Positions 1-55,991 of a DNA stretch of 64,000 nucleotides are shown piece by piece. The notes beneath the pieces were generated by a model. It was not told where the DNA came from. It searched no databases and worked only from the letters and a program-made list of their open reading frames with translations. The stretch lies in NCBI GenBank assembly GCA_000002445.1, contig CH464491.1, positions 4,640,001 through 4,704,000 of the forward strand. Direction: 5' to 3'. Origin of the DNA: Trypanosoma brucei. Lineage: Eukaryota. The position numbers and the translations under genes were made by a program. The first letter of the stretch is position 1. Each line of letters opens with the position of its first letter.

Positions 1-829
1 TATGTTTTGTTGGAAAGTGGTTTCCCGTTATACCAAACCTATGAGTGTTCTCATGGACTTCTTCCGACCTAAGCACTCGCTTCGCATAAGCAATGATGTC
101 GGGGATCCATGTGACTCGCAACTGTGGTAAATCAGCGGCCTTTTTCGCCATTTCGTCACAAACCTCATTCGGTTTCACGCCACAATGGCCAAACACAAAT
201 TGCAGTCGGATACGTATCTTCCTTCTCTGAACTTGAAGCAGAAGCCTCCATAGTCGTCTCAGAATTGTGTCCGTTACGGCTAGAGAGCCTGTCTGCAGTG
301 CTGTTAACATTGACAGCGAGTCAGAGAAGATGGACAACCTGCTCGGTGTGCTTCTGTATGCCGCAAGCCATTTCAGCAGCCGTTGCAGTCCTATCTCTAA
401 TGCTACGCATTCCGCTCTGTAACTGCATGAGAGTTCCCCTGCTCCGGTTTTGAGTGCACAAATCAGCGTGTTGTTTCTATAGAGCAGGGCAGCTGCCCCG
501 GACTTCTCACCGAGGGACACGGATTCATCAGTCCACAATTCGTAGTGCTCTCGCCGCGGTGACTCCTTTCCCCTCCGTGCAAAATGCCGTGCAATCCACT
601 TCTCAGAAGCCTCCCTTTTGACATCGTCAGGGTCATCAGCGCACACAGGCTTTATCTGCGTGTGAAATTGTGGTCAGCAGCTGTGGCGAAGCGTCGATGT
701 CTCTAGTGGGTGCTCGCGTGGCTCAATGTGGAGGTGGGGATAAGACCGCATGATGCGGGAATGTAAGACTCTGACTGGGTGTTTGCTGTGGTATACTTCT
801 TCAACACTGCGCCGCAAACATCCGCCTCG

Positions 830-16990: not shown

Positions 16991-16998
16991 CCCTGGCG

Positions 16999-19898: not shown

Positions 19899-20080
19899 AG
19901 ACATCGACGCTCCGCCACAGCTGCTGACCACAATTTCACACGCAGATAAAGCCTGTGTGCGCTGATGACCCTGACAATGTCAAAAGGGAGGCTTCCGAAA
20001 AGTGGATTAAACGGCATTTTGCACGGAGGGGGAAGGAGTCACCGCGACGAGAGCACTACGAATTTTGAACTGATGAATCC

Positions 20081-34313: not shown

Positions 34314-35649
34314 TGCGGCTACGTTTACAGTCCGTTTTCTGTTTGTGTTGCGCTAAAGATATGCACAATTTCCCTACTTGTGTTTGTGGGTGTTATTCTT
34401 TTTTACTGGTTGTGGTCTCTGAGGCTGTTGTCTTGCTTCGTCTACTGGATGCTGATCGTATTTGTTTGCACAATGTGCTCATGGAAAAAAAGCCGTTTCC
34501 ACACTGGTTGGTGCTAACGGAGGACTGCTGTTAGACAATTGTTCTCGTTGCTTAAGGTGCGTAGCCAGAAATTAAGTCAATATTTTGCCTTGGGCTCTTT
34601 ATTGCTCTTTGAAATACCACAAAACAACCTTCTACCCATTTTCCCTATCACTCCTATTATATTTATGTTAAGCACTCTTAGCTCCTATACTTTCCGTTAA
34701 TAACATTGTTGAAAAATCCTTACCATTGTCCATGATTCTCAGGAAATGTTTGGAAACTAAGTTAGTCGCTTCATTTTTCCACTGTTGAATGAAATCCCCT
34801 CACTTACAATTTACATTCATTGCTGTTATTCTCCTCATTTGTAGTTCGTATTTTTTTCGGTGTTAATCTTTTATTTAGCTACGCTTCATATATTGTTTCA
34901 TTTTCTGTATTCTCTGTGTTTTTATATGCTCTTGTTGTCGTTGTGTGTGAAACGTCTGCTCGCATTATTTTTGTATGACGCCTCTTTTTCGCGTATAACC
35001 AATTGTTGATAGGTGATAGCTTGTTTTGTAATCCGAACCGGACGTTACCTCCATTTAAACACTTCTAGCTCTTCTTTATCGTCAGTCATCACATTTCCTC
35101 TCTATTCCCTTTATTAGGCAAACAACGCCCCATATTCACTCTATCAACTAGCACCGACTTCTAAACTTAATTCTTAAATTGTAGATCCGCTATCATGACA
35201 AAATACACAGCTGCTACCGCATCAGTTGTTGTATTTATTATTTTCGATTAACGTCCGGCGCTTTATCAACTCCTGTTCTTCTTTATGTATTATTTTCCTC
35301 TGTGTTACGTAGCATCGCGTACACTTGTGTCGTTCTAGATTTCCACTACTTTTTTTTTCCTGACACTGTTTATGAACATAATGTGCAGATTCTATTCGGT
35401 CTGTAGATTGTATACTGCACCCTTTCTCTCCCTCATCTCTCTCCTTATCCTCTGCTTGTTTATTATGATGACAATCTTTATGCTTGTGTTTTCCACTGCT
35501 CATGTTACATCTTCATTTCTGTTTTTGTCTTTCTGCGTTTCCTTATATAATATTCTTTGTACTCTCTTTCACATATTTCCCCACTCACTCCCATTACACC
35601 ATTGCCATTGTTTTTGGTGTTTCCGCATCTGCTGCCAATTGGTTATCAT

Positions 35650-35775
35650 TACTGCTCTTATTATAATATTAGTAGACACACTCACAACACTCTCCTATTA
35701 TTATTATTATTACTGCTCATATTATAGTATTCGTATATAAACACTCACAACAATCGTCCTATTATTCTTGCTACT
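35650..35775 (-). repeat. Two 70-bp repeat units, reverse orientation.
   Basis: CTTATTATAATATTAGTAGACACACTCACAACACTCTCCTATTATTATT… and CTCATATTATAGTATTCGTATATAAACACTCACAACAATCGTCCTATTATT. Confidence 0.85.
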
Positions 35776-37506: not shown

Positions 37507-37583
37507 CTAGTTCGATTCATCTGCTTGAATGTGTAACTTGTTAGTTTGATGCTGTATGCTTGCTTGTCTTAGCCACCCTGGCG

Positions 37584-39986
37584 ATGCATGCTACCTCAAC
37601 GTGGTTCCAGGGTCCAGTACCCCGTATCATCGGGGGAAGCCAAGAGCCAGCAGCGTTCCTTTCATGGGGAACACTGCTTTGCTCCGGATACGGCATCATA
37701 CAGCACAGGGATCAGCAGTGTCTTGCTGGGACACCGTTTTTCATTTGTCGGTCCCTGGGCACGCGCCAGCGTACCATCAGCAGTATCATCCGCACTAAGA
37801 TGCTGCTGTCCGGTGATGTGGAAGAGAATCCCGGCCCGTCGTTGCGCGGGATGCAGTGGAACTGCGCCGGGCTATCTCAAGGAGAGAGATTAGCACTCCA
37901 CAAAACCCTTGTTGATGAGCGGATCGCCTTTTGTCTGTTGAGCGAGACAAGGATGACGCCTGGAGAGGCGGCTTGCTTTAGCGTTGCTGGCTACCAACAT
38001 CACGAAATAGCTCGTAACTGCAAAGGAGGTGGTGTATCAATACTAGTGAGGGAGGACCTACCAGTCGAGACCGGTATGGCTGTTGTTGGTCGCATTGAAC
38101 AAGTGCATGCAACAATTCACCTTGCACGTGGAACGGCGCTGACTGTCACGTCGGCATACATCCCACCAAAACACACCTTCACGGCAACTGACCTAGATAC
38201 GCTTCTGACGACTGACGGGGCCCAGCTCATCGGTGTAGAGGCTAACGCACACGCGTTGGCATGGGATCGCGCGAGCCCACCAAATACCAAGGGTGAAACC
38301 CTCACACAGTGGTGCATTGACAACCAGTTTCTGGTCTGCAACACTGGTGAGTGCGCCATTTACACACGCCACCACGGGGAGTCCACCCCTGATGTGACAC
38401 TGTCAAGGAATTGTACAGTGTACACGTGGGCATCGCTGTATTCTTCCGATAGCGATCACCATCACATATTTTTCGAGGTTATCGTTGGAGACGACACAGA
38501 TGCACTGAGTTGCCCGCGGCTTCGAAAGCCCATGTACGCATGGCTAAAAGCTGACTGGAGGAATTTCCGTCTCAAGGTTGACGAGCTCTGCAGGAAAATT
38601 GGTAGAGAGAAGAACGTCAACACCCTGGAACAGAAATTGAGCTCCGCCATCTGCATTGCAACGAAGGTCTCCGTCCCCCGTGGCTGCAGAGTAACGCCAC
38701 CACATTGGACACCTGAGCTCGCGAAACTCGATGAAGAGATCGCTGGATGCGGACCCTCCCACCGAAGGGAAAAGTTGGTAGCCACGCGTAAGCAGATCCT
38801 GGACCGTACCACAAAGAAGAGATGGAGCACGCTATGCTCCAGACTTGCGGTGTCAGACCGCTGCAGTTGGCACATTGTCAAGAAGGTATATGCGCCACGA
38901 CCACTAACCACACCGGCTGTACTTGTTGATAACGCGGCCATCACGGACTACCGTCAAGCTAAGAGGTTCATTAAACTGTACTCGTCCCGCGCAAGAAGGC
39001 ACCCCGACTCACACCCACCGGCACCAATAAAGACGATAGCGAGTGAGTTCAGTCCCATCACGATGGCTGAACTACGGAGATCGATCAAACTGCTACCGAG
39101 TGGATCCGCAGCCGGACCTGATTGCTTATACAACGAGGCACTGCAACATCTCGGCAGAACAGCGCTGAATGTTGTTCTGAGGCTATTCAATGAGAGCCTA
39201 CGAACGGGAGTCGTGCCACCTGCATGGAAGACTGGTGTTATCATCCCCATCCTGAAGGCCGCAAAAAAGGGGGAGGACCTCGAATCTTATAGGCCTGTGA
39301 CGCTCACGAGCTGTCTCTGCAAAGTCATGGAACGCATAATTGCCGCGAGACTTAGAGACACTGTTGAGTCCCAGCTGACGCCGCAGCAATCAGGCTTTCG
39401 CCCCGGATGCTCAACGCTCGAACAACTCCTGCACGTCCGCGCTGCCCTCTGCCGTCCAACGCACCAATATCGTACGGGTGCTGTATTCGTTGACTACGAG
39501 AAGGCATTTGATACAGTAGACCACGACAAAATTGCGAGGGAAATGCACAGAATGAAGGTATCATCCCACATTGTGAAGTGGTGCGTATCATTTCTGAGTA
39601 ACCGAACTGGCAGAGTGAGATTCAAGGAGAAGCTTTCCAGAAGCAGAACATTTGAGCGAGGAGTGCCACAAGGAACTGTCCTTGGCCCAATCATGTTCAT
39701 TATTGTCATGAACTCGTTGAGCCAACGCCTTGCAGAAGTGCCGTTACTGCAGCACGGATTCTTTGCAGACGACCTGACGCTACTTGCGAGGCACACAGAG
39801 AGGAATGTCATCAACCACACAGTACAATGCGGTCTCAACGTGGTGTTACAGTGGTCAAAAAAGGACTTTATGTCTGTCAACGTAGCGAAAACAAAGTGCA
39901 CACTCTTCGGGTGTATAGAGCGCCACCCCCTTACATTACAACTGGACGGCGAAAGAATAGGAGCTGACAGGCACCGAAGCTTCTAG
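37584..39986 (+). CDS. ingi pol: APE endonuclease and N-terminal RT fused in one ORF (~800 aa). This is the longest open frame in the window.
   Basis: MHATSTWFQGPVP…LLSGDVEENPGP…through the RT to GERIGADRHRSF*. The downstream RNase H and zinc-finger parts are in other frames, so the element is still a pseudogene. Confidence 0.8.
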   Translation: MHATSTWFQGPVPRIIGGSQEPAAFLSWGTLLCSGYGIIQHRDQQCLAGTPFFICRSLGTRQRTISSIIRTKMLLSGDVEENPGPSLRGMQWNCAGLSQGERLALHKTLVDERIAFCLLSETRMTPGEAACFSVAGYQHHEIARNCKGGGVSILVREDLPVETGMAVVGRIEQVHATIHLARGTALTVTSAYIPPKHTFTATDLDTLLTTDGAQLIGVEANAHALAWDRASPPNTKGETLTQWCIDNQFLVCNTGECAIYTRHHGESTPDVTLSRNCTVYTWASLYSSDSDHHHIFFEVIVGDDTDALSCPRLRKPMYAWLKADWRNFRLKVDELCRKIGREKNVNTLEQKLSSAICIATKVSVPRGCRVTPPHWTPELAKLDEEIAGCGPSHRREKLVATRKQILDRTTKKRWSTLCSRLAVSDRCSWHIVKKVYAPRPLTTPAVLVDNAAITDYRQAKRFIKLYSSRARRHPDSHPPAPIKTIASEFSPITMAELRRSIKLLPSGSAAGPDCLYNEALQHLGRTALNVVLRLFNESLRTGVVPPAWKTGVIIPILKAAKKGEDLESYRPVTLTSCLCKVMERIIAARLRDTVESQLTPQQSGFRPGCSTLEQLLHVRAALCRPTHQYRTGAVFVDYEKAFDTVDHDKIAREMHRMKVSSHIVKWCVSFLSNRTGRVRFKEKLSRSRTFERGVPQGTVLGPIMFIIVMNSLSQRLAEVPLLQHGFFADDLTLLARHTERNVINHTVQCGLNVVLQWSKKDFMSVNVAKTKCTLFGCIERHPLTLQLDGERIGADRHRSF

Positions 39987-40012
39987 GAGTAACATTCCAG
40001 TGTCTGCAAGGA

Positions 40013-42379
40013 ATGGCAACACATGCGGCAGAGACAAGACGCAAGATGGACTTCAGACTACTGCAGATAGCAGCCATCTCAGCTTCTACATGGGGGCCAA
40101 GACGACAAGTACTGAGAGCTTTTTATCTAGCACTCGTACAGGCACATACCATGTATGGCATTGAGGTATGGTACTGGGACGCTTCGAAACGAAGTCGCGA
40201 TCTCCTTGCAGCAGCACAACACAAAGCCAGTCGAATCATAGCTGGCATACCGCATGGGACGCGCAAAGAGGACTCTCTGCTGGAAGCAAACCTCCTGCCA
40301 CTCAAGACGACCACTCTTGTGCGCAGCATGAAATTCATGCTGATGTGTGAGTCACGAGGCGGATGTTTGCGGCGCAGTGCTGAGGAAGTATACCACAGAA
40401 AACACCCAGACAGAGTCTTACATTCCCGCATCATGCGGTCTTATCCCCACCTCCGCATTGAGCCACGCGAGCACCCACTAGAGACATCGACGCTCCGCCA
40501 CAGCTGCCGATCACTATTTCACACGCAGATAAAGCCTGCGTGCGCTGATGACTCTGACGGTGTCAAAAGGGAGGCTTCCGAAAAGTGGATTGCACGGCAT
40601 TTTGCACGGAGGGGGAAGGAGCCACCGCGACGAGAGCACTACGAATTGTGGACTGATGGATCCGTGTCCCTCGGTGAGAAGTCCGGAGCAGCTGCCCTGC
40701 TCTATAGAAACAACACGCTGATTTGTGCACCCAAGACCGGAGCAGGGGAACTCTCATGTAGTTACAGAGCGGAATGCGTAGCATTAGAGATAGGACTGCA
40801 ACGGCTGCTGAAATGGCTTCCGGCATACAGAAGCACACCGAGCAGGTTGTCCATCTTCTCTGACTCGCTGTCAATGTTAACAGCACTGCAGACAGGCCTC
40901 CTAGCCGTAACGGACCCAATTCTAAGATGACTATGGAGGCTTCTGCTTCAAGTTCAGAGAAGGAAGATACGTATCCGACTGCAATTTGTGTTTGGCCATT
41001 GTGGCGTGAAACGGAATGAGGTTTGCGATGAAATGGCCAAAAAGGCCGCTGATTTACCACAGCTGCGAGATACATGGATCCCCGACATCATTGCTTATGC
41101 GAAGCGAGTGCTTAGGTCGGAAGAAGTCCATGAGAACACTCATAGGTTTGGTATCACGGGCAACCACTTTCCAACAAAACATAAAGAAGAACTGACGAGG
41201 GAAGAAGAAACGGGACTGGCACGGTTTCGGGTTGGGTCTTCAAGGCACTATGGATGGATGTTGCGAAAGATCAACCCGAGTGTGCCTCCACAGTGCCGAT
41301 GGTGCAACCCGCAACATGTAGCGATAGGGCCAACAATACAAACAGTCCCACCTGTTGCGACACGCACTCTTCAGAGAACCTCCGAACCGACCAAATGTAC
41401 GGAATGTGATGCCACATACCAATGCCGCTCGAGTGCTGTAACGCATATGGTAAACAAACACGTCTTTGTGCGAGCTGATGCCCTCCGGAGGATCAAATAC
41501 GGCGATGCAACACCTGCAGTGGACATCCCCCCGGAGCCCCCTCCAGTGGTGGTGATCGTTCCTCTACCATCGAGCACACGAGTCCCGATGAGACCGTAGG
41601 TGCTTTATTGTACCCTCTGTGCCTCCAAATTCGCAGTGCCAGGCCGACTATTACACCACCTTAGAACAATACATGGCATAGGTAGCGGTAGTTGCCGCGT
41701 GAAAAGGGGGCGAGAGAACGAGGACTCAGTGCAAGGAGATGGTAGATCCCCAGCAGCGCCAGCCTCTCAGGATACACGGAAGCTGCCATTTCAATGTGAC
41801 CTGTGCGAGGCGAGCTTCGGTACACGCTCTTCCCTGTCACTACACAAGAAATTCAAACATAAGAGCATGGTGACGGAGGACGGTACCGTGGTGGTGGTGC
41901 AATTCCCTCGTAAGCGTGCCCGTGAGGGAAACGTTGACGCCCCGGGGAAGGGCGAGGTGCAGTGTGGTGTGTGCCAAAAAGTGCTCAGTTGCAGGGACTC
42001 CCTCATCCGACACTGTAAGGCTTTCCACAAAGGTGAGGGAGTCGAGCTTAAATGCAGCAAAAGCACAAAATTGTGTGCCACTGATTCCCCGCATACAAAC
42101 ACATCCATGTTGGTGTACCCGACATGCGGAAGGCAGTGTGCTAACAAAACTGGCCTCACCCTACATCAAAAGAAGATGCACGGTATGAAGGTAGAGCGCG
42201 CTGTTACCAGCCAACGCGGCGACTGCGAAGAAACGTCGCTGCACTTGATGAGCTGTCCCGGTTTGAAGGAGTTACGTGTCAGTTTTGCGGTAGAAGGTGT
42301 GTGTGTGTGCAGGATGTATGTTTTTCCAAAAGGCTGGTGTAGTTTCTCATTGCGGTTGAACGGAGCCGGCCGCAGGTGA
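40013..42379 (+). pseudogene. ingi pol C-terminal RT, RNase H and C2H2 zinc-finger region, split into three ORFs (40013-40930, 40988-41599, 41600-42379).
   Basis: Co-linear with copy 1 segments 19400-21973. Stops at 40930 and 41599. Confidence 0.85.
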
Positions 42380-42837
42380 AGTCCTCACCTAAGGTAACAG
42401 TCATACAACCCACTCTCCCTTCTGCAACTTCCCCCCTTATTGCCGAGTGTGGAGCTAGCAGGAAAAGCACCGGACGCGGGAGTAGTCCAGACACCCTCAG
42501 AGACAGAGGAGGTATGCAGTCAGCAAGCAACAAAAACAGAAAGAGGGAGAGGGGGAGAGAATAATAAACAAATAACAAAAATCAAAACAAAAGGACTGCT
42601 AATTGACATCTTTTGGAGAGTCCGGGGTGGGGGGCTTCTCGCCCCATCTGCTGTATTCTGTTCAACTGCGGAGCTACAACAAAAATTATAGAGGGTGTGT
42701 TAGGATGAATAAAAAAAGGGAGACTCTGCCACAGTCGCCAGACCGATAGCATCTCAGGGCTCTACGGTGATGGCTGATGGCCGCGCCAGTGGGGGGAAAC
42801 TCTCACGAAGGCACGAAGAAAATTCCAAAAAAAAAAA

Positions 42838-43491
42838 TGAGCTGGGCACCGTCAGTTGTCAGAAGCGTATCTAGGTCAGTTGCCGTGAATGTGTATTTTG
42901 GTGGGATGTATCCCGACGTGACAGTCAGCGCCGTTTCACGTGCAAGGTGAAATGTTGCATGCACTTGTTCAATGCGACCAATAACGGCTATACCGGTCTC
43001 GACTGGTAGGTCCCCCCTCACTAGTATTGATACACCACCTCCTTTGCAGTTACGAGCTATTCCGTGATGTTGGTAGCCAGCAACGCTAAAGCAAGCCGCC
43101 CCTCCAGGCGTCATCCTTGTCTCACTCAACAAACAAAAGGCGATCCGCTCATCAACAAGGGTTTTGTGGAGTGCTAATCTCTTTCCTTGAGATAGCCCGG
43201 CGCAGTTCCACTGCATCCCGCGCGACGACGGGCCGGGATTCTCTTCCACATCACCGGACAGCAGCATCTTAGTGCGGATGATACTGCTGATGACACGCTG
43301 GCACGTGCCCAGGGACCGACAAATGAAAAACGGTGTCCCAGCAAGACGCTGCTGATCCCTGTGCTGTATGATGCCGTAGCCGGAGCAAAGCAGTGTTCCC
43401 CATGAAAGGAGCGCTGCTGGCTCTTGGCTTCCCCCGATGATACGGGGTACTGGACCCTGGCACCACGTTGAGGTGGCCGGCATCGCCAGGG
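42838..43491 (-). mobile_element. Inverted ingi 5' segment (ingi nt 1 to ~654), forming the 5' part of composite copy 3.
   Basis: The reverse complement begins CCCTGGCGATGCCGGCCACCTCAACGTGGTGCC… and encodes MPATSTWCQGPVPRIIGG…LLSGDVEENPGP…TDGAQL (ORF 42803-43483, minus). It abuts the poly(A) of copy 2 with no intervening unique sequence. Confidence 0.9.
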
Positions 43492-46400
43492 GGTGCCCAG
43501 CTCATCGGTGCAGACGCTAACGCACACGCTTTGGCATGGGATCGCGCGAGCCCACCAAATACCAAGGGTGAAACCCTCACACAGTGGTGCATTGACAACC
43601 AGTTTCTGGTCTGAAACACTGGTGAGTGCACCAGGTACGCGCGCCACCACGGGGAGTCCACCCCTGATGTGACAATATCAAGGAATTGCACAGTGTACAC
43701 GTGGACATCGCTGTATTCTCCCGATAGTGATCACCATCACATATTTTTTGACGTTATCGTTGGAGACGACACAGATGCACTGAGTTGCCCGCGGCTTCGA
43801 AAGCCCATGTACGCATGGCTAAAAGCTGACTGGAGGAATTTCCGTCTCAAGGTTGACGAGCTCTGCAGGAAAATTGGTAGGGAGAAGAACGTCAACACCC
43901 TGGAACAGAAATTGAGCTCCACCATCCGCATTGTGACGAAGGTTTTCGTCCCCCGTGGCTGCAGAGCAACCCCACCACATTGGACACCTGAGCTCGCGAA
44001 ACTCAATGAAGAGATCGCTGGATGCGGACCCTCCCATCGAAGGGAAAAGTTGGTAGCCACGCGTAAGCAGATACTGGACCGTACCACAAAGAAGAGATGG
44101 AGCACGCTATGCTCCAGACTTGCGGTGTCAGACCGCTGCAGTTGGCACATTGTCAAGAAAGTATATGCGCCACGACCACTAACCACACCGGCTGTACTTG
44201 TTGATAACGCGGCCATCACGGACTACCGTCAAGCTGAGAGGTTCATTAAACTGTACTCGTCTTGCGCAAGAAGACACCCCGACTCACACCCACCGGCACC
44301 CATAAAGACGATATAGCGAGTGAGTTCAGTCCCATCACGATGGCTGAACTATGGAGATCGATCAAACTGCTACCGAGTGGATCCGCAGCAAGAACTGATT
44401 GCTTACACAACGAGGCACTGCAACATCTCGGCAGAACAGCGCTGAATGTTGTTCTGAGGCTATTCAATGAGAGCCTACGAACGGGAGTCGTGTCGCCTCC
44501 ATGGAAGACTGGTGTTATCATCCCCATCCTGAAGGCCGGAAAAAAGGCGGAGGACCTCGAATCTTACAGGCCTGTGACGCTCACGAGCTCTCTTCAAAGT
44601 CATGGAGCGCATCATTGCCACGAGGCTTAGAGACATTGTTGAGTTCCAGCTGACGCCGCAGCAATCAGGCTTTCGCCCCGGATGCTCAACGCTCGAACAA
44701 CTCCTGCACGTCCGCGCTGCCCTCTGCCGTCCCACGCACAAATATCGTACGGGTGCTGTATTTGTCGACTACGAGAAGGCATTTGATACAGTAGAACACA
44801 ACAGAATTGCGAGGGAAATGCACAGAATGAAGGTATCACCCCACATTTTGAAGTGGTGCGTATGATTTCCGAGTAACCGAACTGGCAGAGTGAGATTCAA
44901 GGAGAAGCTTTCCAGAAGCAGAACATTTGAGCGAGGAGTGCCACAAGGAACTGTCCTTGGCCCAATCATGTTCATTATTGTCATGAACTCGTTGAGCCAA
45001 CGCCTTGCAGAAGTGCCGTTACTGCAGCACGGATTCTTTGCAGACGACCTGACGCTACTTGCGAGGCACACAGAGAGGAATGTCATCAACCACACAGTAC
45101 AATGCGGTCTCAACGTGGTGTTACAGTGGTCAAAAAAGGACTTTATGTCTGTCAACGTAGCGAAAACAAAGTGCACACTCTTCGGGTGTATAGAGCGCCA
45201 CCCCCTTACATTACAACTGGACGGCGAAAGAATAGGAGCTGACAGGACACCGAAGCTTCTAGGAGTAACATTCCAGTGTCTGCAAGGAATGGCAACACAT
45301 GCGGCAGAGACAAGACGCAAGATGGACTTCAGACTACTGCAGATAGCAGCCATCTCAGCTTCTACATGGGGGCCAAGACGACAAGTACTGAGAGCTTTTT
45401 ATCTAGCACTCGTACAGGCACACACCATGTATGGCATTGAGGTATGGTACTGGGACGCTTCGGAACGAAGTCGCGATCTCCTTTCAGCAGCACAACACAA
45501 AGCCAGTCGAATCATAGCTGGCATACCGCATGGGACGCGCAAAGAGGACTCTCTGCTGGAAGCAAACCTCCTGCCACTCAAGACGACCACTCTTGTGCGC
45601 AGCATGAAATTCATGCTGATGTGTGAGTCACGAGGCGGATGTTTGCGGCGCAGTGCTGAGGAAGTATACCACAGAAAACACCCAGACAGAGTCTTACATT
45701 CCCGCATCATGCGGTCTTATCCCCACCTCCGCATTGAGCCACGCGAGCACCCACTAGAGACATCGACGCTCCGCCACAGCTGCCGACCGCTATTTCACAC
45801 GCAGATAAAGCCTGTGTGCGCTGATGACTCTGACGGTGTCAAAAGGGAGGCTTCCGAAAAGTGGATTGCACGGCATTTTGCACGGAGGGGGAAGAGCGAC
45901 CGCGGCGAGAGCACTAAGAATTGTGAACTGATGGATCCGGTCCCTCGGGAGNNNNNNNNNNNNNNNNNNNNNNNNNNNNNNNNNNNNNNNNNNNNNNNNN
46001 NNNNNNNNNNNNNNNNNNNNNNNNNNNNNNNNNNNNNNNNNNNNNNNNNNNCCGCGCCGCCGGAGAGTCATGAGAACCTCATAGGTTTGGTATNCACGGG
46101 CAACCACTTTTCCAACAAAACATAAAGAAGAACTGACGAGGGAAGAAGAAACGGGACTGGAACGCTTTCGGGTTGGGTCTTCAAGACACTATGGATGGAT
46201 GTTGCGAAAGATCAACCCGAGTGTGCCTCCACAGTGCCGATGGTGTAACCCGCAACATGCAGCGATCGGGCCAACAATACAAACAGCCTCAACTGTTGCG
46301 ACACGTACTCTTCAGAGAACCTCCGAACCGACCAAATGTACGGAATGTGATGCCACATACCAATGCCGCTCGAGTGCTGTAACGCATATGGTAAACAAAC

Positions 46401-47768
46401 ATGGCTTTATGCGAGCTGATGCCCTCCGGAGGATCAAATACGGCGATGCAACACCTGCAGTGGACATCCCCCCGGAGCCCCCTCCAGTGGTGGCGATTGT
46501 TCCTCTACCATCGAGCACACGAGTCCCGATGAGACCGCAGGTGCTTCATTGTACCCTCTGTGCCTCCAAATTCGCAGTGCCAGGCCGACTATTACACCAC
46601 CTTCAAACAATACATGGCATAGGTAGCGGTAGTTGCCGCGTGGAAAGGGGGCGAGAAAACGAGGACTCATTGCAAGGAGATGGTAGAGCCCCAGCAGCGC
46701 CAGCCCCTCAGGATACACGGAAGCTGCCGTTTCAATGTGACCTGTGCGAGGCGAGCTTCGGTACACGCTCTTCCCTGTCACTACACAAGAAATTCAAACA
46801 TAAGAGCATAGTGACGGAGGACGGTACCGTGGTGGTGGTGCAAATCCCTCGTAAGCGTGCCCGTGAGGGAAACGTTGACGTCCCGGGGAAAGGCGAGGTG
46901 CAGTGTGGTGTGTGCCAAAAAGTGCTCAGTTGCAGGGACTCCCTCATCCGACACTGTAAGGCTTTCCACAAAGGTGAGGGAATCGAGCTTAAATGCAGCA
47001 AAAGCACAAAATTGTGTGCCACTGATTCCCCGCATACAAACGCATCCATGTTGGTGTGCCCGACATGCGGAAGTCAGTGTGCTAGCAAAACTGGCCTCAC
47101 CCTATATCAAAAGAAGATGCACGGTATGAAGGTAGAGCACGCTGTTACCAGCCAACGCGGCGACTGCGAAGAAACGTCACTGCACTTGATGAGCTGTCCC
47201 GGTTTGAAGGAGTTACGTGTCAGGTTTGCGGTAGAAAGTGTGTGTGTGCAGGATGTATGTTTCTTTAAAAGGCTGGCGCAGTTTCTCATTGCGGTTGAAC
47301 GGAGCAGGCCGCAGGTGAAGTCTTCCCCTAATGTAACAGTCATACAACCCACTCTCCCTTCTGCAACTTCCCCCCTTATTGCCGACTGTGGAGCTAGCAG
47401 GAAAAGCACCGGACGCAGGAATAGTCCAGACACCCTCAGAGACAGAGGGGGTATGCAGTCAACAAGCAACAGAAACAGAAAGAGGGGAAGAGAATAATAA
47501 ACGAATAACAAAAATCAAAACAAAAGGATTGCTAATTGACATCTTTTTGAGAGTCCGGGGTGGGGGGCTTCTCGCCCCATCTGCTGTATTCCGTTCAACT
47601 GCGGAAATACAACAAAAATTATAGAGAGTGTGTTAGGCTGAATAAAAAAGGGAGAATCTGCCACAGTCGCCAGACCGATAGCATCTCAGGGCTCTACAGT
47701 GATGGCTGATGGCCGCGCCAGTGGGGGGAAACTCCCACGAAGGCACGAAGAAAATTCCAAAAAAAAAA
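43492..47768 (+). mobile_element. ingi copy 3, forward portion from ingi nt ~642 to the poly(A). It includes a 100-N gap at 45952-46051.
   Basis: Starts GGTGCCCAGCTCATCGGTGCAGACGCTAACGCACACGC (ingi APE ...GAQLIGADANAHA). Pol ORFs 43669-44316, 44262-44865, 44890-46125 and 46199-47497 (zinc fingers). The 3' RIME-half ends in poly(A) at 47768. Confidence 0.93.
45952..46051. other. Assembly gap (100 N) inside ingi copy 3. About 440 bp of ingi sequence is expected here.
   Basis: The flanks correspond to ~20095 and ~20540 of copy 1. Confidence 0.9.
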
Positions 47769-49779: not shown

Positions 49780-50100
49780 TTATTATAATATTTGTATATA
49801 CTCACTCACAACACTCTCCTATTATTACTATCATCATTATCATTATCATTATTATTATCATTACTGCTGTTATTATAATATTCGTATATGCACTCTCACA
49901 ACACTCTCCTATTATTATTATGATTACTATCATTACTGTTCTTATTATAACATTCGTATATACACTCTCACAACACTTTCCTATTATTATTATCATTATT
50001 ATCATTATTATTATTATTACTGCTCGTATTATAATATTCGTATATACACACTCACCACACTATACTATTATTATTATTACTATTATAATCCTAAATAATA
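49780..50100 (-). repeat. Array of four 70-bp repeat units, reverse orientation.
   Basis: Four tandem copies of …TATAATATTCGTATATACACTCTCACAACACTCTCCTATTATTATTAT…, separated by ATT/ATC runs. Confidence 0.9.
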
Positions 50101-50724: not shown

Positions 50725-53700
50725 TTTTTTTTTAAATTTCCTTCGTGCCTTCGTGGGAGTTTCCCCCCACTGGCGCGGCCATCAGCCATCACTGTAGAGC
50801 CCTGAGATGCTATCGGTCTGGCGACTGTGGCAGAGTCTCCCTTTTTTATTCAGCCTAACACACTCTCTATAATTTTTGTTGTAGCTCCTCAGTTGAACGG
50901 AATACAGCAGATGGGGCGAGAAGCCCCCCACCCCAGACTCTCTAAAAGATGTCAATTAGCAATCCTTTTGTTTTGATTTTTGTTATTCGTTTATTATTCT
51001 CTTCCCCTCTTTCTGTTTCTGTTGCTTGTTGACTGCATACCCCCTCTGTCTCTGAGGGTGTCTGGACTATTCCTGCGTCCGGTGCTTTTCCTGCTAGCTC
51101 CACGGTCGGCAATAAGGGGGGAAGTTGCAGAAGGGAGAGTGGGTTGTATGACTGTTACATTAGGGGAAGACTTCACCTGCGGCCTGCTCCGTTCAACCGC
51201 AATGAGAAATTGCGCCAGCCTTTTAAAGAAACATACATCCTGCACACACACACTTTCTACCGCAAACCTGACACGTAACTCCTTCAAACCGGGACAGCTC
51301 ATCAAGTGCAGTGACGTTTCTTCGCAGTCGCCGCGTTGGCTGGTAACAGCGTGCTCTACCTTCATACCGTGCATCTTCTTTTGATATAGGGTGAGGCCAG
51401 TTTTGCTAGCACACTGCCTTCCGCATGTCGGGCACACCAACATGGATGCGTTTGTATGCGGGGAATCAGTGGCACACAATTTTGTGCTTTTGCTGCATTT
51501 AAGCTCGATTCCCTCACCTTTGTGGAAAGCCTTACAGTGTCGGATGAGGGAGTCCCTGCAACTGAGCACTTTTTGGCACACACCACACTGCACCTCGCCT
51601 TTCCCCGGGACGTCAACGTTTCCCTCACGGGCACGCTTACGGGGGAATTGCACCACCACCACGGTACCGTCCTCCGTCACTATGCTCTTATGTTTGAATT
51701 TCTTGTGTAGTGACAGGGAAGAGCGTGTACCAATGCTCGCCTCGCACAGGTCACATTGAAACGGCAGCTTCCGTGTATCCTGAGGGGCTGGCGCTGCTGG
51801 GGCTCTACCATCTCCTTGCAATGAGTCCTCGTTCTCTCGCCCCCTTTTGACGCGGCAACTACCGCTGCCTATGCCATGTATTGTTTGAAGGTGGTGTAGT
51901 AGTCGGCCTGGCACTGCGAATTTGGAGGCACAGAGGGTACAATGAAGCACCTGCGGTCTCATCGGGACTCGTGTGCTCGATGGTAGAGGAACAATCGCCA
52001 CCACTGGAGGGGGCTCCGGGGGGATGTCCACTGCAGGTGTTGCATCGCCGTATTTGATCCTCCGGAGGGCATCAGCTCGCATAAAGCCATGTTTGTTTAC
52101 CATATGCGTTACAGCACTCGAGCGGCATTGGTATGTGGCATCACATTCCGTACATTTGGTCGGTTCGGAGGTTCTCTGAAGAGTACGTGTCGCAACAGTT
52201 GAGGCTGTTTGTATTGTTGGCCCGATCGCTGCATGTTGCGGGTTACACCATCGGCACTGTGGAGGCACACTCGGGTTGATCTTTCGCAACATCCATCCAT
52301 AGTGTCTTGAAGACCCAACCCGAAAGCGTTCCAGTCCCGTTTCTTCTTCCCTCGTCAGTTCTTCTTTATGTTTTGTTGGAAAGTGGTTGCCCGTGATACC
52401 AAACCTATGAGTGTTCTCATGGACTTCTTCCGACATAAGCACTCGCTTCGCATAAGCAATGATGTCGGGGATCCATGTGACTCGCAACTGTGGTAAATCA
52501 GCGGCCTTTTTCGCCATTTCGTCACAAACCTCATTCGGTTTCACGCCACAATGGCCAAACACAAATTGCAGTCGGATACGCATCTTTCTTCTCTGAACTT
52601 GAAGCAGAAGCCTCCATAGTCGTCTCAGAATTGGGTCCGTTACGGCTAGAGAGCCTGTCTGCAGTGCTGTTAACATTGACAGCGAGTCAGAGAAGATGGA
52701 CAACCTGCTCGGTGTGCTTCTGTATGCCGGAAGCCATTTCAGCAGCCGTTGCAGTCCTATCTCTAATGCTACGCATTCCGCTCTGTAACTGCATGAGAGT
52801 TCCCCTGCTCCGGTTTTGAGTGCACAAATCAGCGTGTTGTTTCTATAGAGCAGGGCAGCTGCCCCGGACTTCTCACCGAGGGACACGGATTCATCAGTTC
52901 AAAATTCGTAGTGCTCTCGTCGCGGTGACTCCTTCCCCCTCCGTGCAAAATGCCGTGCAATCCACTTCTCAGAAGCCTCCCTTTTGACATCGTCAGGGTC
53001 ATCAGCGCACACAGGCTTTATCTGCGTGTGAAATTGTGGTCAGCAGCTGTGGCGAAGCGTCGATGTCTCTAGTGGGTGCTCGCGTGGCTCAATGTGGAGG
53101 TGGGGATAAGACCGCATGATGCGGGAATGTAAGACTCTGACTGGGTGTTTGCTGTGGTATACTTCCTCACCACTGCGCCGCAAAAATCCGCCTCGTGACT
53201 CACACATCAGCATGAATTTCATGCTGCGCACAAGAGTGGTCGTCTTGAGTGGCAGGAGGTTTGCTTCCAGCAGAGAGTCCTCTTTGCGTGTTCCATGTGG
53301 TATGCCGGCTATGATGCGACTGGCTTTGTTTTGTGCTGATGCAAGGAGGTCGCGACTTCGTTTCGAAGCGTCCCAGTACCATACCTCAATGCCATACATG
53401 GTGTGTGCCTGTACGAGTTCCAGATGAAAAGCTCTCAGTACTTGTCGTCTTGGCCCCCATGTAGAAGCTGAGATGGCTGCTATCTGCAGTAGTCTGAAGT
53501 CCATCTTGCGTCTCGTTTCGGCCGCATGTGTTGCCATCCCCTGCAGACACTGGAATGTTATTCCGAGAAGCTTCGGTGTCCTGTCAGCTCCTATTCTTTC
53601 GCCGTCCAGTTGTAATGTAAGGTGATAGCGCTCTATACACCCGAAGAGTGTGCACTTTGTTTTCGCTACGTTGACAGACATGAAGTACTCTTTTGACCAC

Positions 53701-55186
53701 TGTAACACCACGTTTAGACCGCATTGTAGTGTGTGGTTGATGACATCCCTCTCTGTGTGCCTCGCAAGTAGCGTCAGGTCGTCTGCAAAGAATCCGTGCT
53801 GCAGTAACGGCACTTCTGCAAGGCGTTGGCTCAACGAGTTCATGACAATAATGAACATGATTGGGCCAAGTACAGTTCCTTGTGGCACTCCTCGCTCAAA
53901 TGTTCTGCTGCTGGAAAGCTTCTCCTTGAATCTCACTCTGCCAGTTCGGTTACTCAGAAATGATACGCACCACTTCACAATGTGGGGTGATACCTTCATT
54001 CTGTGCATTTCCCTCGCAATTTTGTCGTGGTCTACTGTATCGAATGCCTTCTCGTAGTCAACGAATACAGCACCCGTACGATATTGGTGCGTGGGGCGGC
54101 AGAGGGCAGTGCGGACGTGCAGGAGTTGTTCGAGCGTTGAGCATCCGTGGCAAAAGCCTGATTGCTGCGTCGTCAGCTGGGACTCAACAGTGTCTCTAAG
54201 CCTCGCGGCAATTATGCGCTCCATGACTTTGCAGAGACAGCTCGTGGGCGTCACAGGCCTGTAAGAATCGAGGTCCTCCGCCTTTTTTCCGGCATTCAGG
54301 ATGGGGATGATAACACCAGTCTTCCATGCAGGCGGCACGACTCCCGTTCGTAGGCTCTCATTGAATAGCCTCAGAACAACATTCAGCGCTGTTCTACCGA
54401 GGTGTTGCAGTGCCTCGTTGTATAAGCAATCAGGTCCGGTTGCGGATCCACTCAGTAGCTGTTTGATCGATCTCCGTAGTTCAGCCATCGTGATGAGACT
54501 GAACTCACTCGCTATCGTCTTTACGGGTGCCGGTGTTGTTAGTGGTCATTGCGCATATACCTTCTTGACAATGTGCCAACTGCAGCGGTCTGACACCGCA
54601 AGTCTGGAGCATAGCGTGCTCCATCTCTTCTTTGTGGTACGGTCCAGGATCTGCTTACGCGTGGCTACCAACTTTTCCCTTCGGTGGGAGGGTCCGCATC
54701 CAGCGATCTCTTCATCGAGTTTCGCGAGCGCAGGTGTCCAATGTGGTGGCGGAGCTCAATTTCTGTTCCAGGGTGTTGACGTTCTTCTCTCTACCAATTT
54801 TCCTGCAGAGCTCGTCAACCTTGAGACGGAAATTCCTCCAGTTAGCTTTTAGCCATGCGTACATGGGCTTTCGAAGCCGCGGGCAACTCAGTGCATCTGT
54901 GTCGTCTCCAACGATAACGTCGAAAAATATGTGATGGTGATCGCTATCGGGAGAATACAGCGATGTCCACGTGTACACTGTGCAATTCCTTGACAGTGTC
55001 ACATCAGGGGTGGACTCCCCGTGGTGGCGCGCGTACCTGGTGCACTCACCAGTGTTGCAGACCAGAAACTGGTTGTCAATGCACCACTGTGTGAGGGTTT
55101 CACCCTTGGTATTTGGTGGGCTCGCTCGATCCCATGCCAACGCGTGTGCGTTAGCGTCTGCACCGATGAGCTGGGCACCGTCAGTC
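50725..55186 (-). mobile_element. ingi retrotransposon, copy 4. The 3' end is intact; the 5' ~600 bp is lost in a scaffold gap. It has internal deletions of ~100 bp and ~50 bp relative to copy 1.
   Basis: Poly(T) at 50725-50733 followed by the reverse-complemented 3' RIME-half. Minus ORFs 50994-52886 (RNase H/zinc fingers, 630 aa), 53040-54488 (RT) and 54712-55186 (APE, partial). Deletions are seen near 54530 and 54750 when aligned by eye to 2150-2560. Confidence 0.93.
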
Positions 55187-55286
55187 NNNNNNNNNNNNNN
55201 NNNNNNNNNNNNNNNNNNNNNNNNNNNNNNNNNNNNNNNNNNNNNNNNNNNNNNNNNNNNNNNNNNNNNNNNNNNNNNNNNNNNNN
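55187..55286. other. Assembly gap (100 N).
   Basis: Run of 100 n. Confidence 1.
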
Positions 55287-55485
55287 AATGCTTGCTATGA
55301 TGCTGGCCGCTTGACCTTTGGGCCCCTGCAGATTTTTTTTCGTCAGGTGGGAGGTGAAGAACAACATGGGCACTACCCGGAAGCGCACTGTTTCCCGCGA
55401 CGGTGTGACGCAACGGCCCCAGCGTTTCTCCCGCAAATGTTACAACGGGGAAACCGCATGCAACCGGGCGATTTTCGTTTAAGTC

Positions 55486-55991
55486 CCTGGGGGGGCCGGC
55501 CACCTCAACGTGGTGCCAGGGTGCAGTACCCCGTATCATCGGGGGAAGCCAAGAGCCAACAGCGTTCCTTTCATGGGGAACACTGCTGTGCTCCGGATAC
55601 GGCGTCATACAGCACAGGGATCAGCAGCGTCTTGCTGGGACACCGGTCTTCATTTGTCGGTCCCTGGGCACGTGGCAAGCGTGCCATCGGCACTATCATC
55701 CGCACTAAAATGCTGCTGTCTGGTGATGTGGACCTCAAAAAAAGGATTGCTAATTGACAACTTTTGGAGAGTCTAGGGTGGGGGGCTTCTCGCCCCATCT
55801 GCTGTATTCCGTTCATATGCGGAAATACAACAAAAATTATAGAGGGTGTGTTAGGATGAATGAAAAAGGGAGACTCTGCCACAGTCGCCAGACCGATAGC
55901 ATCTCAGGGCTCTACGGTGATGGCTGATGGCCGCGCCAGTGAGGGGAAACTCCCACGAAGGCACGAAGACAACTTTTAAAAAAAAAAAAAG
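55486..55991 (+). mobile_element. RIME (~506 bp): ingi 5' ~250 bp fused to ingi 3' ~250 bp.
   Basis: Starts CCCTGGGGGGGCCGGCCACCTCAACGTGGTGCCAGGGTGCAGTACCCCGTATCATCGGGGG. The internal junction near 55730 reads …CTGTCTGGTGATGTGGA|CCTCAAAAAAAGGATTGCTAATTGACAAC…, then the 3' RIME-half and poly(A) follow to 55991. Confidence 0.93.

What the first reader, a model, noticed from the sequence alone, without database searches (positions are those of the whole stretch)
42838..43504. ingi copy 3 has its 5' 654 bp inverted in place, with a 13-bp duplication at the junction
Directly after the poly(A) of copy 2 (42837), the sequence is the reverse complement of ingi nt 1 to ~654 (42838-43491). Its 5' terminus faces the forward remainder of the same element, which starts at ingi nt ~642 (43492 onward). 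The 13-mer GGTGCCCAGCTCA occurs at both ends of the inverted block: reverse-complemented at 42838-42850 and forward at 43492-43504. So the inversion breakpoint is the same ingi position on both sides, with 13 bp duplicated. This is the signature of a 5' inversion as produced by twin priming in mammalian L1, or of a small palindrome-mediated rearrangement. I am not aware of it being a described feature of trypanosome ingi elements. It could instead be a misassembly, given the collapsed ingi repeats and N gaps nearby.
Basis: seen in the sequence. Interest (0 to 1): 0.6.

Follow-up and report, generated by a model that had tools for sequence, protein, structure and literature searches.

The report
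Inverted ingi 5' end, probably nested insertion
A 654-bp head piece of a trypanosome ingi retrotransposon really does sit backwards in front of the rest of the element, but it is most simply explained by one ingi having jumped into another followed by a flip between their matching head ends (in the parasite or in the assembly), not by a new L1-style 'twin priming' event.

Summary
Window 42838-43491 is the reverse complement of ingi nt 1-654. The forward remainder starts at nt 642 (43492). GGTGCCCAGCTCA sits inverted at both ends of the block; the repeat is 14 nt if A42837/T43505 is counted.

The block is not foreign. A high-divergence tract (about nt 510-2020) runs straight across the breakpoint, so the block's breakpoint-proximal end and the forward part belong to one old element.

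The twin-priming reading fits the topology only. The supposed target, the tail of copy 2, has no ingi endonuclease signature in any register. There is no flanking target-site duplication (TSD). Junction microhomology is 1 nt and 0 nt. The "inserted" element looks older than its supposed target.

Inverting the segment between the two inverted 641-bp 5' arms (37576-38216 and 42851-43491) gives a textbook nested insertion. A full-length 5262-bp ingi then lies in opposite orientation inside an older ingi, flanked by a perfect 13/14-bp direct repeat (ingi TSD is 12 bp). The target signature scores 6/10 when anchored on the first-strand nick.

Best explanation (about 0.6): nested insertion plus a flip between the inverted arms, either by recombination or by assembler orientation choice. 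Twin priming is about 0.15. Interest is low to moderate.

The parts
37542..37575 (+). Left flank of copy 2. It is a canonical ingi4 endonuclease target signature; the predicted 12-bp TSD is TTGTCTTAGCCA (37564-37575).
   Evidence: Scores 8/10 on AxxxxxxxTxxxGTxGGxTxxx^xTxTxxTxxxxx (signature taken from PMC3820030). The 12-mer occurs nowhere else in the window.
37576..38216 (+). Left 641-bp arm, ingi nt 1-641 of 'copy 2'. In the nested model, its first ~145 to 500 nt are the 5' end of the older host element W.
   Evidence: BLAST map. It differs from the right arm at 26/641 positions with no indels; the longest identical runs are 68, 50 and 49 nt. Five of its 7 private substitutions lie in nt 1-144, and nt 150-1000 are nearly identical to copy A.
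38217..42837 (+). Body and poly(A) (42827-42837) of 'copy 2', ingi nt 642-5262. This is the young guest element Q in the nested model. Its own copy of the 13-mer reads GGGGCCCAGCTCA.
   Evidence: Private substitutions are 0.57%. The longest ORF, 808 aa, starts at the element's 5' end. One search shows its own 13-mer allele.
42837..42850 (-). Left copy of the repeat: reverse complement of ingi nt 642-654 (13 nt), plus the ambiguous A42837. It directly follows the poly(A).
42851..43491 (-). Right 641-bp arm: reverse complement of ingi nt 641..1, ending exactly at nt 1. Together with 42838-42850 it forms the 'inverted block'.
   Evidence: 95.9% identity to copy 2. Private substitutions are 3 in nt 1-500 and 7 in nt 501-641.
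43492..43505 (+). Right copy of the repeat: GGTGCCCAGCTCA (ingi nt 642-654) plus T655. It abuts rc(nt 1) bluntly.
43494..43527 (-). Host-strand 34-mer (reverse complement of ingi nt 644-677). It matches the ingi4 target signature when anchored on the first-strand nick, assuming a 14-nt TSD ATGAGCTGGGCACC.
   Evidence: Scores 6/10 at shift 2; the background probability of 6 or more is 2.7%. The register ending at nt 654 scores 7/10. The region is GT-rich, so several registers score well.
43505..45951 (+). Forward remainder of 'copy 3' (ingi nt 655-3103), the 3' side of the older host element W. It carries stops and frameshifts.
   Evidence: Private substitutions are 1.68% overall and about 2.9% in nt 501-2020. 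There is an in-frame TGA at about 43612.
45952..46051 (.). 100-N gap inside copy 3. The link to the 3' part and to the right flank rests on scaffolding only.
   Evidence: The last 60 nt before the gap carry three 1-nt deletions.
46052..47768 (+). ingi nt 3543-5261 plus a poly(A) of 10 A, placed as the 3' end of copy 3. The right flank reads GTCCGCTGCCAG...
   Evidence: It is 98.4% identical to copy E.
42803..43483 (-). 226-aa ORF, the N-terminal endonuclease part of the ingi protein. It is open through the whole inverted block and runs across the left junction into the poly(T).
   Evidence: There is no exact copy on record. The best relatives are annotated ingi fragments from T. equiperdum and T. 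b. gambiense, and none carries the junction-specific C-terminus.

Best explanation
Both novel junctions are the ordinary ends of one retrotransposition event. A young, full-length ingi (guest Q) inserted in opposite orientation into an older ingi (host W) at host nt 642-654/655, duplicating 13-14 bp of host sequence as its TSD.

That insertion placed the two elements' first 641 bp in inverted orientation, 4.6 kb apart. The segment between these arms (window 38217-42850) was then flipped. The flip came either from homologous recombination between the arms in the parasite, or from the assembler threading the inverted repeat in the wrong orientation.

After the flip, the guest's poly(A) end faces the host's nt 654..1, which is the 'inverted block'. 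The guest's former 5' junction, rc(nt 1)|host nt 642, lies at the other end of the block.

Shown: the geometry, the exact termini, the perfect repeat, and the shared origin of the block's proximal end and the forward part. Inferred: the order of events, the recombination step, and whether the flip is biological.
For: 1. An in-silico inversion of 38217-42850 yields host(1..641)-GGTGCCCAGCTCA-[5262-bp minus-strand ingi from poly(T) to CCCTGG]-GGTGCCCAGCTCA-host(655..). This is a perfect direct repeat around a full-length element.
2. The repeat length of 13-14 bp is close to the fixed 12-bp ingi TSD (PMC3820030).
3. Both junctions are element termini. The arm ends exactly at nt 1 and the other side is a poly(A). 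This explains why the block sits directly after another ingi's poly(A).
4. Anchored on the first-strand nick, the host strand scores 6/10 on the ingi4 signature. Genuine flanks score 4-9/10 (n=11), and the background probability of 6 or more is 2.7%.
5. The ingi antisense strand has 32 sites scoring 7/10 or more, against 5 on the sense strand, so opposite-orientation nesting is expected. Locus L004 (T. equiperdum) shows a minus-strand ingi fragment abutting a plus-strand ingi nt 1 at such a site.
6. The host looks older than the guest: 1.68% versus 0.57% private substitutions, and more stops and frameshifts.
7. A high-divergence tract (8, 5, 9, 4, 9, 10 private sites per 250 nt over nt 501-2000) crosses the breakpoint from the block into the forward part. 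This fits the block's proximal end being host sequence.
8. The block's nt 1-500 is as little diverged as the guest (0.6%), while copy 2's nt 1-144 is as diverged as the host. The likelihood ratio is about 3-27 for swapped linkage.
9. Copy 2 and copy 3 are nearly identical over nt 2021-3100 (10/1077) yet 4-5.6% from all other copies. This indicates sequence exchange between the two.
10. The arms are 95.9% identical with no indels and have identical runs of up to 68 nt.
11. Recombination between inverted copies of a retrotransposon is a documented cause of inversions in primates (PMC2603318).
Against: - The TSD would be 13-14 bp, not the canonical 12 bp.
- Anchored on the 5' junction with a 12-bp TSD, the signature score is only 1/10. 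The 6/10 match depends on choosing the register, which gives about 8% after allowing three registers, and the region is GT-rich.
- The model needs a second event (the flip). Recombination across the longer 4.6-kb inverted arms would be expected to be at least as frequent and would give a different arrangement.
- The host's own TSD (TTGTCTTAGCCA) is not found after copy 3's poly(A). However, that flank lies beyond an N gap, and none of the 9 other evaluable ingi/RIME has a TSD either.
- The mosaic signal in the arms is statistically weak.
- No other genome or read data could be brought to bear.
Confidence: 0.6

Rival explanations
1. Twin priming. A single ingi RNA was reverse-transcribed from two primers: the bottom-strand nick on the poly(A), and the top-strand 3'-OH, here the end of copy 2's poly(A), annealed internally at nt 654/655. 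The second cDNA ran off the RNA's 5' end at nt 1. The first reached nt 642. The two were then joined.
For: The topology is exactly that of L1 5' inversions, with an overlap of 13 nt. The inverted arm ends exactly at nt 1. That is where the RNA 5' end is expected, because the element's first 77 nt act as a self-cleaving HDV-like ribozyme or promoter in this clade (PMC4035085). A blunt junction is compatible with RT end-to-end template jumping (PMC2912911). The block's proximal end and the forward part are cognate. It needs only one event. The T-tract opposite a poly(A) would be a good primer for another poly(A) tail.
Against: The target has no ingi4 signature: 0/10, and below 5/10 in all registers of the reconstructed empty site. 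All 11 genuine flanks score 4 or more. No TSD flanks the unit. Microhomology is 1 nt and 0 nt, whereas 5'-inverted L1s are the class richest in microhomology (PMC2912911). Copy 3 is more diverged and degenerate than copy 2, although it must have been inserted after it. It is an unexplained coincidence that the overlap equals the ingi TSD length and that the left neighbour is exactly another ingi's poly(A) end. The searched library holds no paper with both 'ingi' and 'twin priming', and the only three with 'twin priming' and trypanosom* are on L1 or RTE-related SINEs by title and were not read.
Confidence: 0.15
2. Assembly orientation error, a sub-case of the best explanation counted within its 0.6. 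The genome holds only the simple nested insertion, and the assembler threaded the two 96%-identical inverted 641-bp arms the wrong way. The 4.6-kb segment between them is therefore drawn in the wrong orientation.
For: Any inverted repeat longer than the reads leaves the orientation of the enclosed segment undetermined. The region is visibly hard to assemble. There are 100-N gaps inside copy 3 (45952) and at the 5' side of copy E (55187), the latter only 7 nt beyond the same 13-mer. There are single N's at 46094 and 57653 and indel errors at a contig end. The un-flipped form is a textbook structure.
Against: The contig runs without gaps or indels through copy 2, both junctions and 2.4 kb of copy 3, and the block keeps an open 226-aa ORF. 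The arms differ at 26 sites, enough for reads of 700 nt or more to be threaded correctly. A single Sanger-length read could span the whole 654-bp block with both junctions. The sequencing technology is unknown.
Confidence: 0.25
3. In-place DNA inversion of the first 654 bp of a direct head-to-tail ingi tandem. One break was blunt, at poly(A)|nt 1. The other was staggered by 13 nt at nt 641/654 and was filled in on both ends before rejoining.
For: It produces exactly the observed inverted 13-bp duplication at both ends of the inverted segment (inference). Staggered-break inversions with inverted duplications are known in other organisms (own knowledge).
Against: It requires a prior tandem in which a poly(A) abuts nt 1 with not a single base of flank or TSD between them, and a break exactly at that boundary. 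It also requires blunt end joining with 0-1 nt of microhomology. T. brucei is known to lack classical NHEJ and to repair by microhomology-mediated joining (own knowledge). It does not explain the age difference or the mosaic of the arms.
Confidence: 0.05
4. Chimeric misassembly. The 654-bp block belongs to another ingi elsewhere in the genome, for example the missing 5' end of copy E, and was wrongly placed here.
For: There are collapsed repeats and gaps nearby. Copy E's contig ends at ingi nt 635, and its last 20 nt overlap the start of the block with one mismatch at the terminal base.
Against: The block's nt 501-641 has 5% private substitutions, like copy 3's adjoining tract (2.9%) and unlike copy E (0.4%) or any other copy. 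The likelihood ratio is about 10^3. Overlap-based misjoins occur inside homology and do not create two novel blunt junctions exactly at nt 1 and at a poly(A) end that share one 13-mer.
Confidence: 0.05

Closest known systems
L1 5' inversion by twin priming (Ostertag & Kazazian 2001; features as summarised in PMC2912911)
   Same: An inverted 5' segment is followed by the forward 3' segment of the same element, with a short overlap at the inversion point. The two parts are cognate.
   Different: There is no TSD around the unit and no endonuclease target signature at the supposed target. Microhomology is almost absent. The inverted arm is full-length to nt 1. The left neighbour is another element's poly(A) end. 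The 'insert' looks older than its target.
Canonical ingi/RIME insertion with a 12-bp TSD downstream of the ingi4 target signature (Bringaud et al. 2004, as cited in PMC3820030)
   Same: After un-flipping, a full-length element runs from CCCTGG to poly(A) and is flanked by a perfect direct repeat. The signature scores 6/10 when anchored on the first-strand nick. The guest is younger than the host. The orientation is opposite to the host, where signature-like sites are 6 times more frequent.
   Different: The repeat is 13-14 bp rather than 12. The arrangement as drawn needs an additional inversion.
Retrotransposon recombination-mediated inversion (RRMI) between inverted L1/Alu copies (PMC2603318)
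   Same: A segment bounded by two inverted copies of the same retroelement family is inverted, with no gain or loss of sequence and with chimeric arms.
   Different: Here the arms are the 5' ends of a guest and its own host element, 641 bp long at 95.9% identity. No un-inverted allele is available to prove the event.
Orientation ambiguity of a segment between inverted repeats in assemblies (for example the plastid small single-copy region between the inverted repeats)
   Same: The two orientations are indistinguishable to reads shorter than the repeat.
   Different: The arms differ at 26 sites, so they are resolvable in principle.

Membership tests
Twin-primed 5'-inverted non-LTR insertion | An inverted 5' segment abuts the forward 3' segment of the same element, with a small overlap or deletion at the inversion point. 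| tested here: met
   rc(1-654) is followed by 642 onward, a 13-nt overlap. The two parts share a divergence tract across the breakpoint.
Twin-primed 5'-inverted non-LTR insertion | A target-site duplication flanks the whole inverted-plus-forward unit. | tested here: inconclusive
   The left flank is CC(A)11 and the right flank is GTCCGCTGCCAG, so there is no duplication. However, the 3' end lies beyond an N gap, and none of the 9 other ingi/RIME examined has a TSD either.
Twin-primed 5'-inverted non-LTR insertion | The insertion site carries the element's endonuclease target signature. | tested here: not met
   0/10 for the 34 nt left of the block. No register of the reconstructed empty site reaches 5/10 at the junction. 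Genuine flanks score 4-9/10 (n=11).
Twin-primed 5'-inverted non-LTR insertion | Microhomology at the 5' junction (target versus internal RNA site) and at the inversion junction. | tested here: not met
   1 nt (A/T655) and 0 nt. Five G's are retained although a 2-nt GG overlap was available. This feature is frequent but not obligatory in L1 (PMC2912911).
Twin-primed 5'-inverted non-LTR insertion | The insert is younger than the DNA it was primed from. | tested here: not met
   Copy 3 has 1.68% private substitutions and several stops. Copy 2 has 0.57% and an 808-aa ORF. Caveat: divergence may be inherited from an old source copy.
TSD-flanked nested ingi insertion (after un-flipping) | A complete element is bounded by nt 1 (CCCTGG) and poly(A). 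| tested here: met
   The simulated un-flip gives a 5262-bp element with both termini intact.
TSD-flanked nested ingi insertion (after un-flipping) | A direct repeat of host sequence of about 12 bp lies at both ends. | tested here: met
   There is a perfect 13-bp repeat (14 bp with the ambiguous A). This is 1-2 bp longer than the canonical 12 bp.
TSD-flanked nested ingi insertion (after un-flipping) | The ingi4 signature lies upstream of the first-strand cleavage site. | tested here: inconclusive
   6/10 when anchored on the nick with a 14-nt TSD, and 1/10 when anchored on the 5' junction with a 12-nt TSD.
TSD-flanked nested ingi insertion (after un-flipping) | The host element is older than the guest. 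| tested here: met
Inversion by recombination between inverted retroelement copies (RRMI type) | Homologous inverted arms lie at both ends of the inverted segment. | tested here: met
   37576-38216 versus 42851-43491: 615/641 identical, no indels.
Inversion by recombination between inverted retroelement copies (RRMI type) | The arms are chimeric, each part host and part guest. | tested here: inconclusive
   Private-site distribution favours a switch at about nt 145-500, with a likelihood ratio of 3-27. This rests on only 17 sites.
Inversion by recombination between inverted retroelement copies (RRMI type) | The un-inverted allele exists in a related genome or in reads. | not testable with these tools
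   No T. brucei read sets and no orthologous VSG-array assemblies were reachable.

The most novel reading that the evidence does not exclude
The structure is a genuine twin-primed ingi insertion. It would have been primed from a nick at the end of a neighbouring ingi's poly(A), independently of the endonuclease signature. To my knowledge (own recall, not a systematic check) that would be the first evidence for twin priming in a trypanosomatid retroposon; the searched library holds no paper with both 'ingi' and 'twin priming'.
Probability: 0.15. Interest if true: 0.55.

Novelty: new member of a known kind. Interest (0 to 1): 0.25.

Why it matters
If the nested-insertion reading is right, this is an ordinary product of two known processes: retroposon nesting, and recombination or assembly ambiguity between inverted repeats. 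Three practical points follow.

- It marks a spot in a VSG array where the drawn orientation of a 4.6-kb segment should not be trusted without long reads.
- It illustrates how ingi clusters can reshuffle subtelomeric arrays.
- It gives a cautionary example. A structure with the exact topology of an L1 twin-priming inversion can arise from a TSD-flanked nested insertion plus one flip. Surveys for 5' inversions in repeat-rich genomes should test that alternative.

Only the less likely twin-priming reading would add something new to retrotransposon biology.

Tried and rejected
**Searches that found nothing**
- Exact-protein look-ups of the junction-spanning 226-aa ORF and of four neighbouring VSG or flank ORFs, meant to find the same locus in other assemblies: nothing on record.
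- Homology search with the junction ORF: only ordinary ingi fragments from T. equiperdum, T. b. gambiense, T. grayi and T. theileri, and none with the junction-specific C-terminus.
- Homology search with the 401-aa VSG: no relatives at E below 1e-30, so the source strain could not be identified.
- Junction 22-mer searched in JGI metagenome contigs and in the six fetched loci: no match. This was expected, as these are not trypanosome collections.
- Rfam scan of 42700-43700 for a ribozyme at the arm's nt 1: no family matched.

**Tests that turned out uninformative**
- DNA fold of the block: it only pairs the 14-nt arms. This gives no support for a pre-existing palindrome.
- TSD tests. None of the ingi/RIME in the window or in loci L001-L004 has a 12-bp TSD, so the absence of a TSD here does not discriminate between models.

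**Models rejected**
- Two independent nested insertions at the same site. Copy 2's 5' flank is a bona fide non-ingi target (8/10), and the model needs three events.
- A 5'-truncated copy 3 inserted at the 5' boundary of a minus-strand ingi. The 13-nt coincidence would be unexplained and there is no TSD.
- The block as copy E's missing 5' end. Its divergence profile does not fit.

**Correction of an earlier conclusion**
I first concluded that the nested model fails the target-signature test (1/10). That depended on anchoring at the 5' junction with a 12-nt TSD. Anchoring on the first-strand nick gives 6/10.
Full report
**1. Observation**

The window is a T. brucei-group subtelomeric VSG array. 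ORFs match Pfam VSG_B, Trypan_glycop and Trypan_glycop_C. It is crowded with ingi retroposons and holds four 100-N gaps.

I used the full-length copy at 37576-42837 as the reference. It is 5262 bp with poly(A) at 42827-42837, and I call it 'copy 2'. BLAST against it maps the elements as follows:

| Window | Strand | ingi nt | Note |
|---|---|---|---|
| 1-3610 | - | 1-3608 | cut by window start |
| 16991-22229 | + | full length | copy A |
| 37576-42837 | + | full length | copy 2 |
| 42838-43491 | - | 1-654 | the inverted block, 95.9% identity, no indels |
| 43492-45951 | + | 642-3103 | copy 3, forward part |
| 45952-46051 | . | | N gap |
| 46061-47768 | + | 3543-5261 | plus poly(A) |
| 50725-55186 | - | 635-5260 | copy E, ends at an N gap |
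| 55485-55988 | + | | RIME |
| 57641-62790 | - | full length | copy F |

The repeat finder gives a perfect 14-nt inverted repeat at 42837-42850 / 43492-43505.

The inverted arm ends exactly at ingi nt 1 (CCCTGG). That position is fixed by eleven other element 5' ends. The junction with nt 642 is blunt.

**2. Is the block foreign?**

The block is 3-4% different from every other copy in the window, so it is not a duplicated piece of assembly.

I aligned eight copies and counted substitutions private to each. The reconstructed copy 3 (block nt 1-641 plus forward nt 642-3103) gives 2, 1, 8, 5, 9, 4, 9, 10, 2, 0, 1, 0, 5 private sites per 250 nt.

A high-divergence tract therefore runs from about nt 510 to about nt 2020, straight across the breakpoint. 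Block nt 501-641 carries 7 private sites in 141 nt (5%). That resembles the adjoining forward part (2.9%) and is unlike copy E (0.4%) or any other copy.

The breakpoint-proximal end of the block and the forward part thus belong to one old element. It also excludes the idea that the block is copy E's missing 5' end.

**3. Testing twin priming**

The topology fits. The further predictions do not.

- **Target signature.** The published Tbingi target signature is 5'-AxxxxxxxTxxxGTxGGxTxxx^xTxTxxTxxxxx-3', with a 12-nt TSD after the first-strand nick (PMC3820030).
  - Eleven genuine 5' flanks score 4-9 of 10. Five are in the window. Six are in T. equiperdum or T. b. gambiense loci fetched through annotated ingi fragments.
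  - Only 9% of all window positions score 5 or more.
  - The 34 nt left of the block, which is copy 2's tail, score 0/10. No register of the reconstructed empty site reaches 5 at the junction.
- **TSD.** No TSD flanks the unit. This test is weak for two reasons. The 3' end lies beyond an N gap. None of the other nine ingi/RIME examined has a TSD either, which points to frequent recombination among copies.
- **Microhomology.** It is 1 nt and 0 nt at the two junctions. In L1, 5'-inverted copies are the class richest in microhomology (PMC2912911).
- **Relative age.** Copy 3 would have to post-date copy 2, since it would be primed from copy 2's poly(A) end. Yet it is about three times more diverged (1.68% versus 0.57% private sites) and more degenerate.
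- **Literature.** The searched library holds no paper with both 'ingi' and 'twin priming'. Three papers hold 'twin priming' and trypanosom*; their titles concern L1 and RTE-related SINEs, and I did not read them.

**4. An alternative that explains both junctions**

Both novel junctions are retroelement termini, and both abut the same 13-mer in the element's own orientation:
- poly(A)|TGAGCTGGGCACC on the plus strand;
- TGAGCTGGGCACC|CCCTGG on the minus strand.

That is what a TSD looks like, except that the two ends lie on opposite strands.

I inverted in silico the segment between the two inverted 641-bp 5' arms, window 38217-42850. This turns the arrangement into the following:

host(1..641)-GGTGCCCAGCTCA-[5262-bp full-length minus-strand ingi]-GGTGCCCAGCTCA-host(655..)

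This is a textbook nested insertion with a perfect 13/14-bp direct repeat. The points in its favour are:

- It explains why the block sits directly after another ingi's poly(A).
- It explains why the duplication is TSD-sized.
- It explains why the arm ends at nt 1.
- It explains why the host looks older than the guest.
- The ingi antisense strand carries 32 signature-like sites (7/10 or more) against 5 on the sense strand. Opposite-orientation nesting is therefore expected.
- One of the six fetched loci, L004, shows a minus-strand ingi fragment abutting a plus-strand ingi nt 1 at such a site.

The target-signature result depends on the anchor:
- Anchored on the 5' junction with a 12-nt TSD, the host site scores only 1/10.
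- Anchored on the first-strand nick with the 14-nt repeat as TSD, it scores 6/10. The background probability of 6 or more is 2.7%, or about 8% after allowing three registers.
- The region is GT-rich, so this is supportive but not strong.

**5. The flip**

The arms differ at 26 of 641 positions, have no indels, and contain identical runs of up to 68 nt.

Two observations suggest exchange between the two elements:
- Copy 2 and copy 3 are almost identical over nt 2021-3100 (10/1077), while both are 4-5.6% from all other copies.
- The private-site pattern is what a crossover at about nt 145-500 predicts. Copy 2's nt 1-144 is diverged like the host. The block's nt 1-500 is as clean as the guest. 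The likelihood ratio is roughly 3-27, resting on few sites.

Inversions by recombination between inverted retrotransposon copies are well documented in primates (PMC2603318).

The same picture would arise if the assembler threaded the inverted arms the wrong way. The sequence alone cannot separate a biological flip from an in-silico one. The nearby gaps keep the assembly variant alive. One of them lies only 7 nt beyond the same 13-mer in copy E. There are also indel errors at a contig end.

**6. Other models**

- **In-place inversion of a perfect head-to-tail tandem** by one blunt and one 13-nt-staggered break reproduces the structure. It needs a tandem with no flank at all, and blunt end joining. 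I rate it at about 0.05.
- **A palindrome-mediated origin** is not supported. The inverted repeat is a product of the rearrangement, and ingi nt 1-30 and nt 625-670 share no meaningful complementarity.

**7. Verdict**

| Model | Estimate |
|---|---|
| Nested ingi-in-ingi insertion with a 13/14-bp TSD, followed by a flip between the inverted 5' arms | about 0.6 |
| - of which a real recombination event | about 0.35 |
| - of which an assembly orientation choice | about 0.25 |
| Twin priming | about 0.15 |
| In-place inversion by staggered break | about 0.05 |
| Block belongs to another locus | about 0.05 |

Twin priming remains possible and would be the interesting outcome. It fails four of five defining tests here.

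I could not reach reads or orthologous loci from other T. brucei genomes with these tools. The decisive tests are two junction PCRs or long reads, plus a comparison of the orthologous locus in other strains.

Noticed in passing
window 55160-55186 (copy E, minus strand) and N gap 55187-55286: Copy E's contig ends at ingi nt 635, only 7 nt beyond the same 13-mer GGTGCCCAGCTCA that bounds the inverted block. E reads normally through the 13-mer. A random contig end falling this close has a chance of about 1-2%. The cause is unknown: it could be assembly behaviour at this site, or a real truncation or interruption of E.
   Followed up: partly
window ingi/RIME at 16991-22229, 37576-47768, 55485-55988, 57641-62790; L001 9993-15254; L002 2486-7750; L003 9777-15033; L004 9993-15247: None of these complete elements is flanked by the expected 12-bp target-site duplication, although their 5' flanks carry the ingi4 target signature (4-9/10). 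This suggests that 5' and 3' flanks have been reshuffled by recombination or gene conversion among copies in VSG arrays. Some of the loci come from a chromosome-scale T. equiperdum assembly.
   Followed up: partly
window 39596-40675 (copy 2 nt 2021-3100) versus 44870-45951 (copy 3): Copy 2 and copy 3 differ at only 10/1077 positions here, while each is 4-5.6% from all other copies. Elsewhere they differ by 3-5%. This looks like a gene-conversion tract between the two neighbours.
   Followed up: partly
ingi nt 654/655: window 2956-2957, 17644-17645, 62137-62138; also L001: A 2-nt TC insertion immediately after the 13-mer (CAGCTC[TC]ATCGG) is present in the first copy (window 1-3610) and in copies A, F and L001. 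It is absent from copy 2, copy 3, E and L002. It shifts the ingi reading frame right after ...DGAQL, as seen in the annotated fragments P0001 and P0004 versus P0006 and P0007.
   Followed up: partly
window 54529-54535 (copy E) and 61448-61454 (copy F): Copies E and F share a deletion of about 98 bp covering ingi nt 1343-1440. E has a further small deletion (nt 1075-1119).
   Followed up: no
L004 9304-9993 (T. equiperdum CM010679.1): A minus-strand ingi 3' fragment (nt 4571-5258) lies 3 nt from the nt 1 of a full-length plus-strand ingi. The position scores 7/10 on the target signature on the antisense strand of ingi. The rest of the host element is missing downstream.
   Followed up: partly
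ingi reference (copy 2), both strands: Sites scoring 7/10 or more on the ingi4 target signature are six times more frequent on the antisense strand of ingi (32) than on the sense strand (5). This predicts that ingi-in-ingi insertions should be mostly head-to-head or tail-to-tail.
   Followed up: no
window 45890-45951 and single N's at 46094, 57653: Three single-base deletions relative to all other copies occur in the last 60 nt before the N gap in copy 3, and isolated N's lie inside ingi copies. These are signs of low-quality consensus at contig ends. The two junctions of the inverted block show no indels.
   Followed up: no
window 49780-50086 and 35643-35766: Imperfect AT-rich tandem repeats with periods of about 61-90 bp (TTATTATTATCATTA...ACACTCACAACA) lie in VSG-array intergenic regions. 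They may be the 70-bp-type repeats found upstream of VSG genes (interpretation from own knowledge).
   Followed up: no
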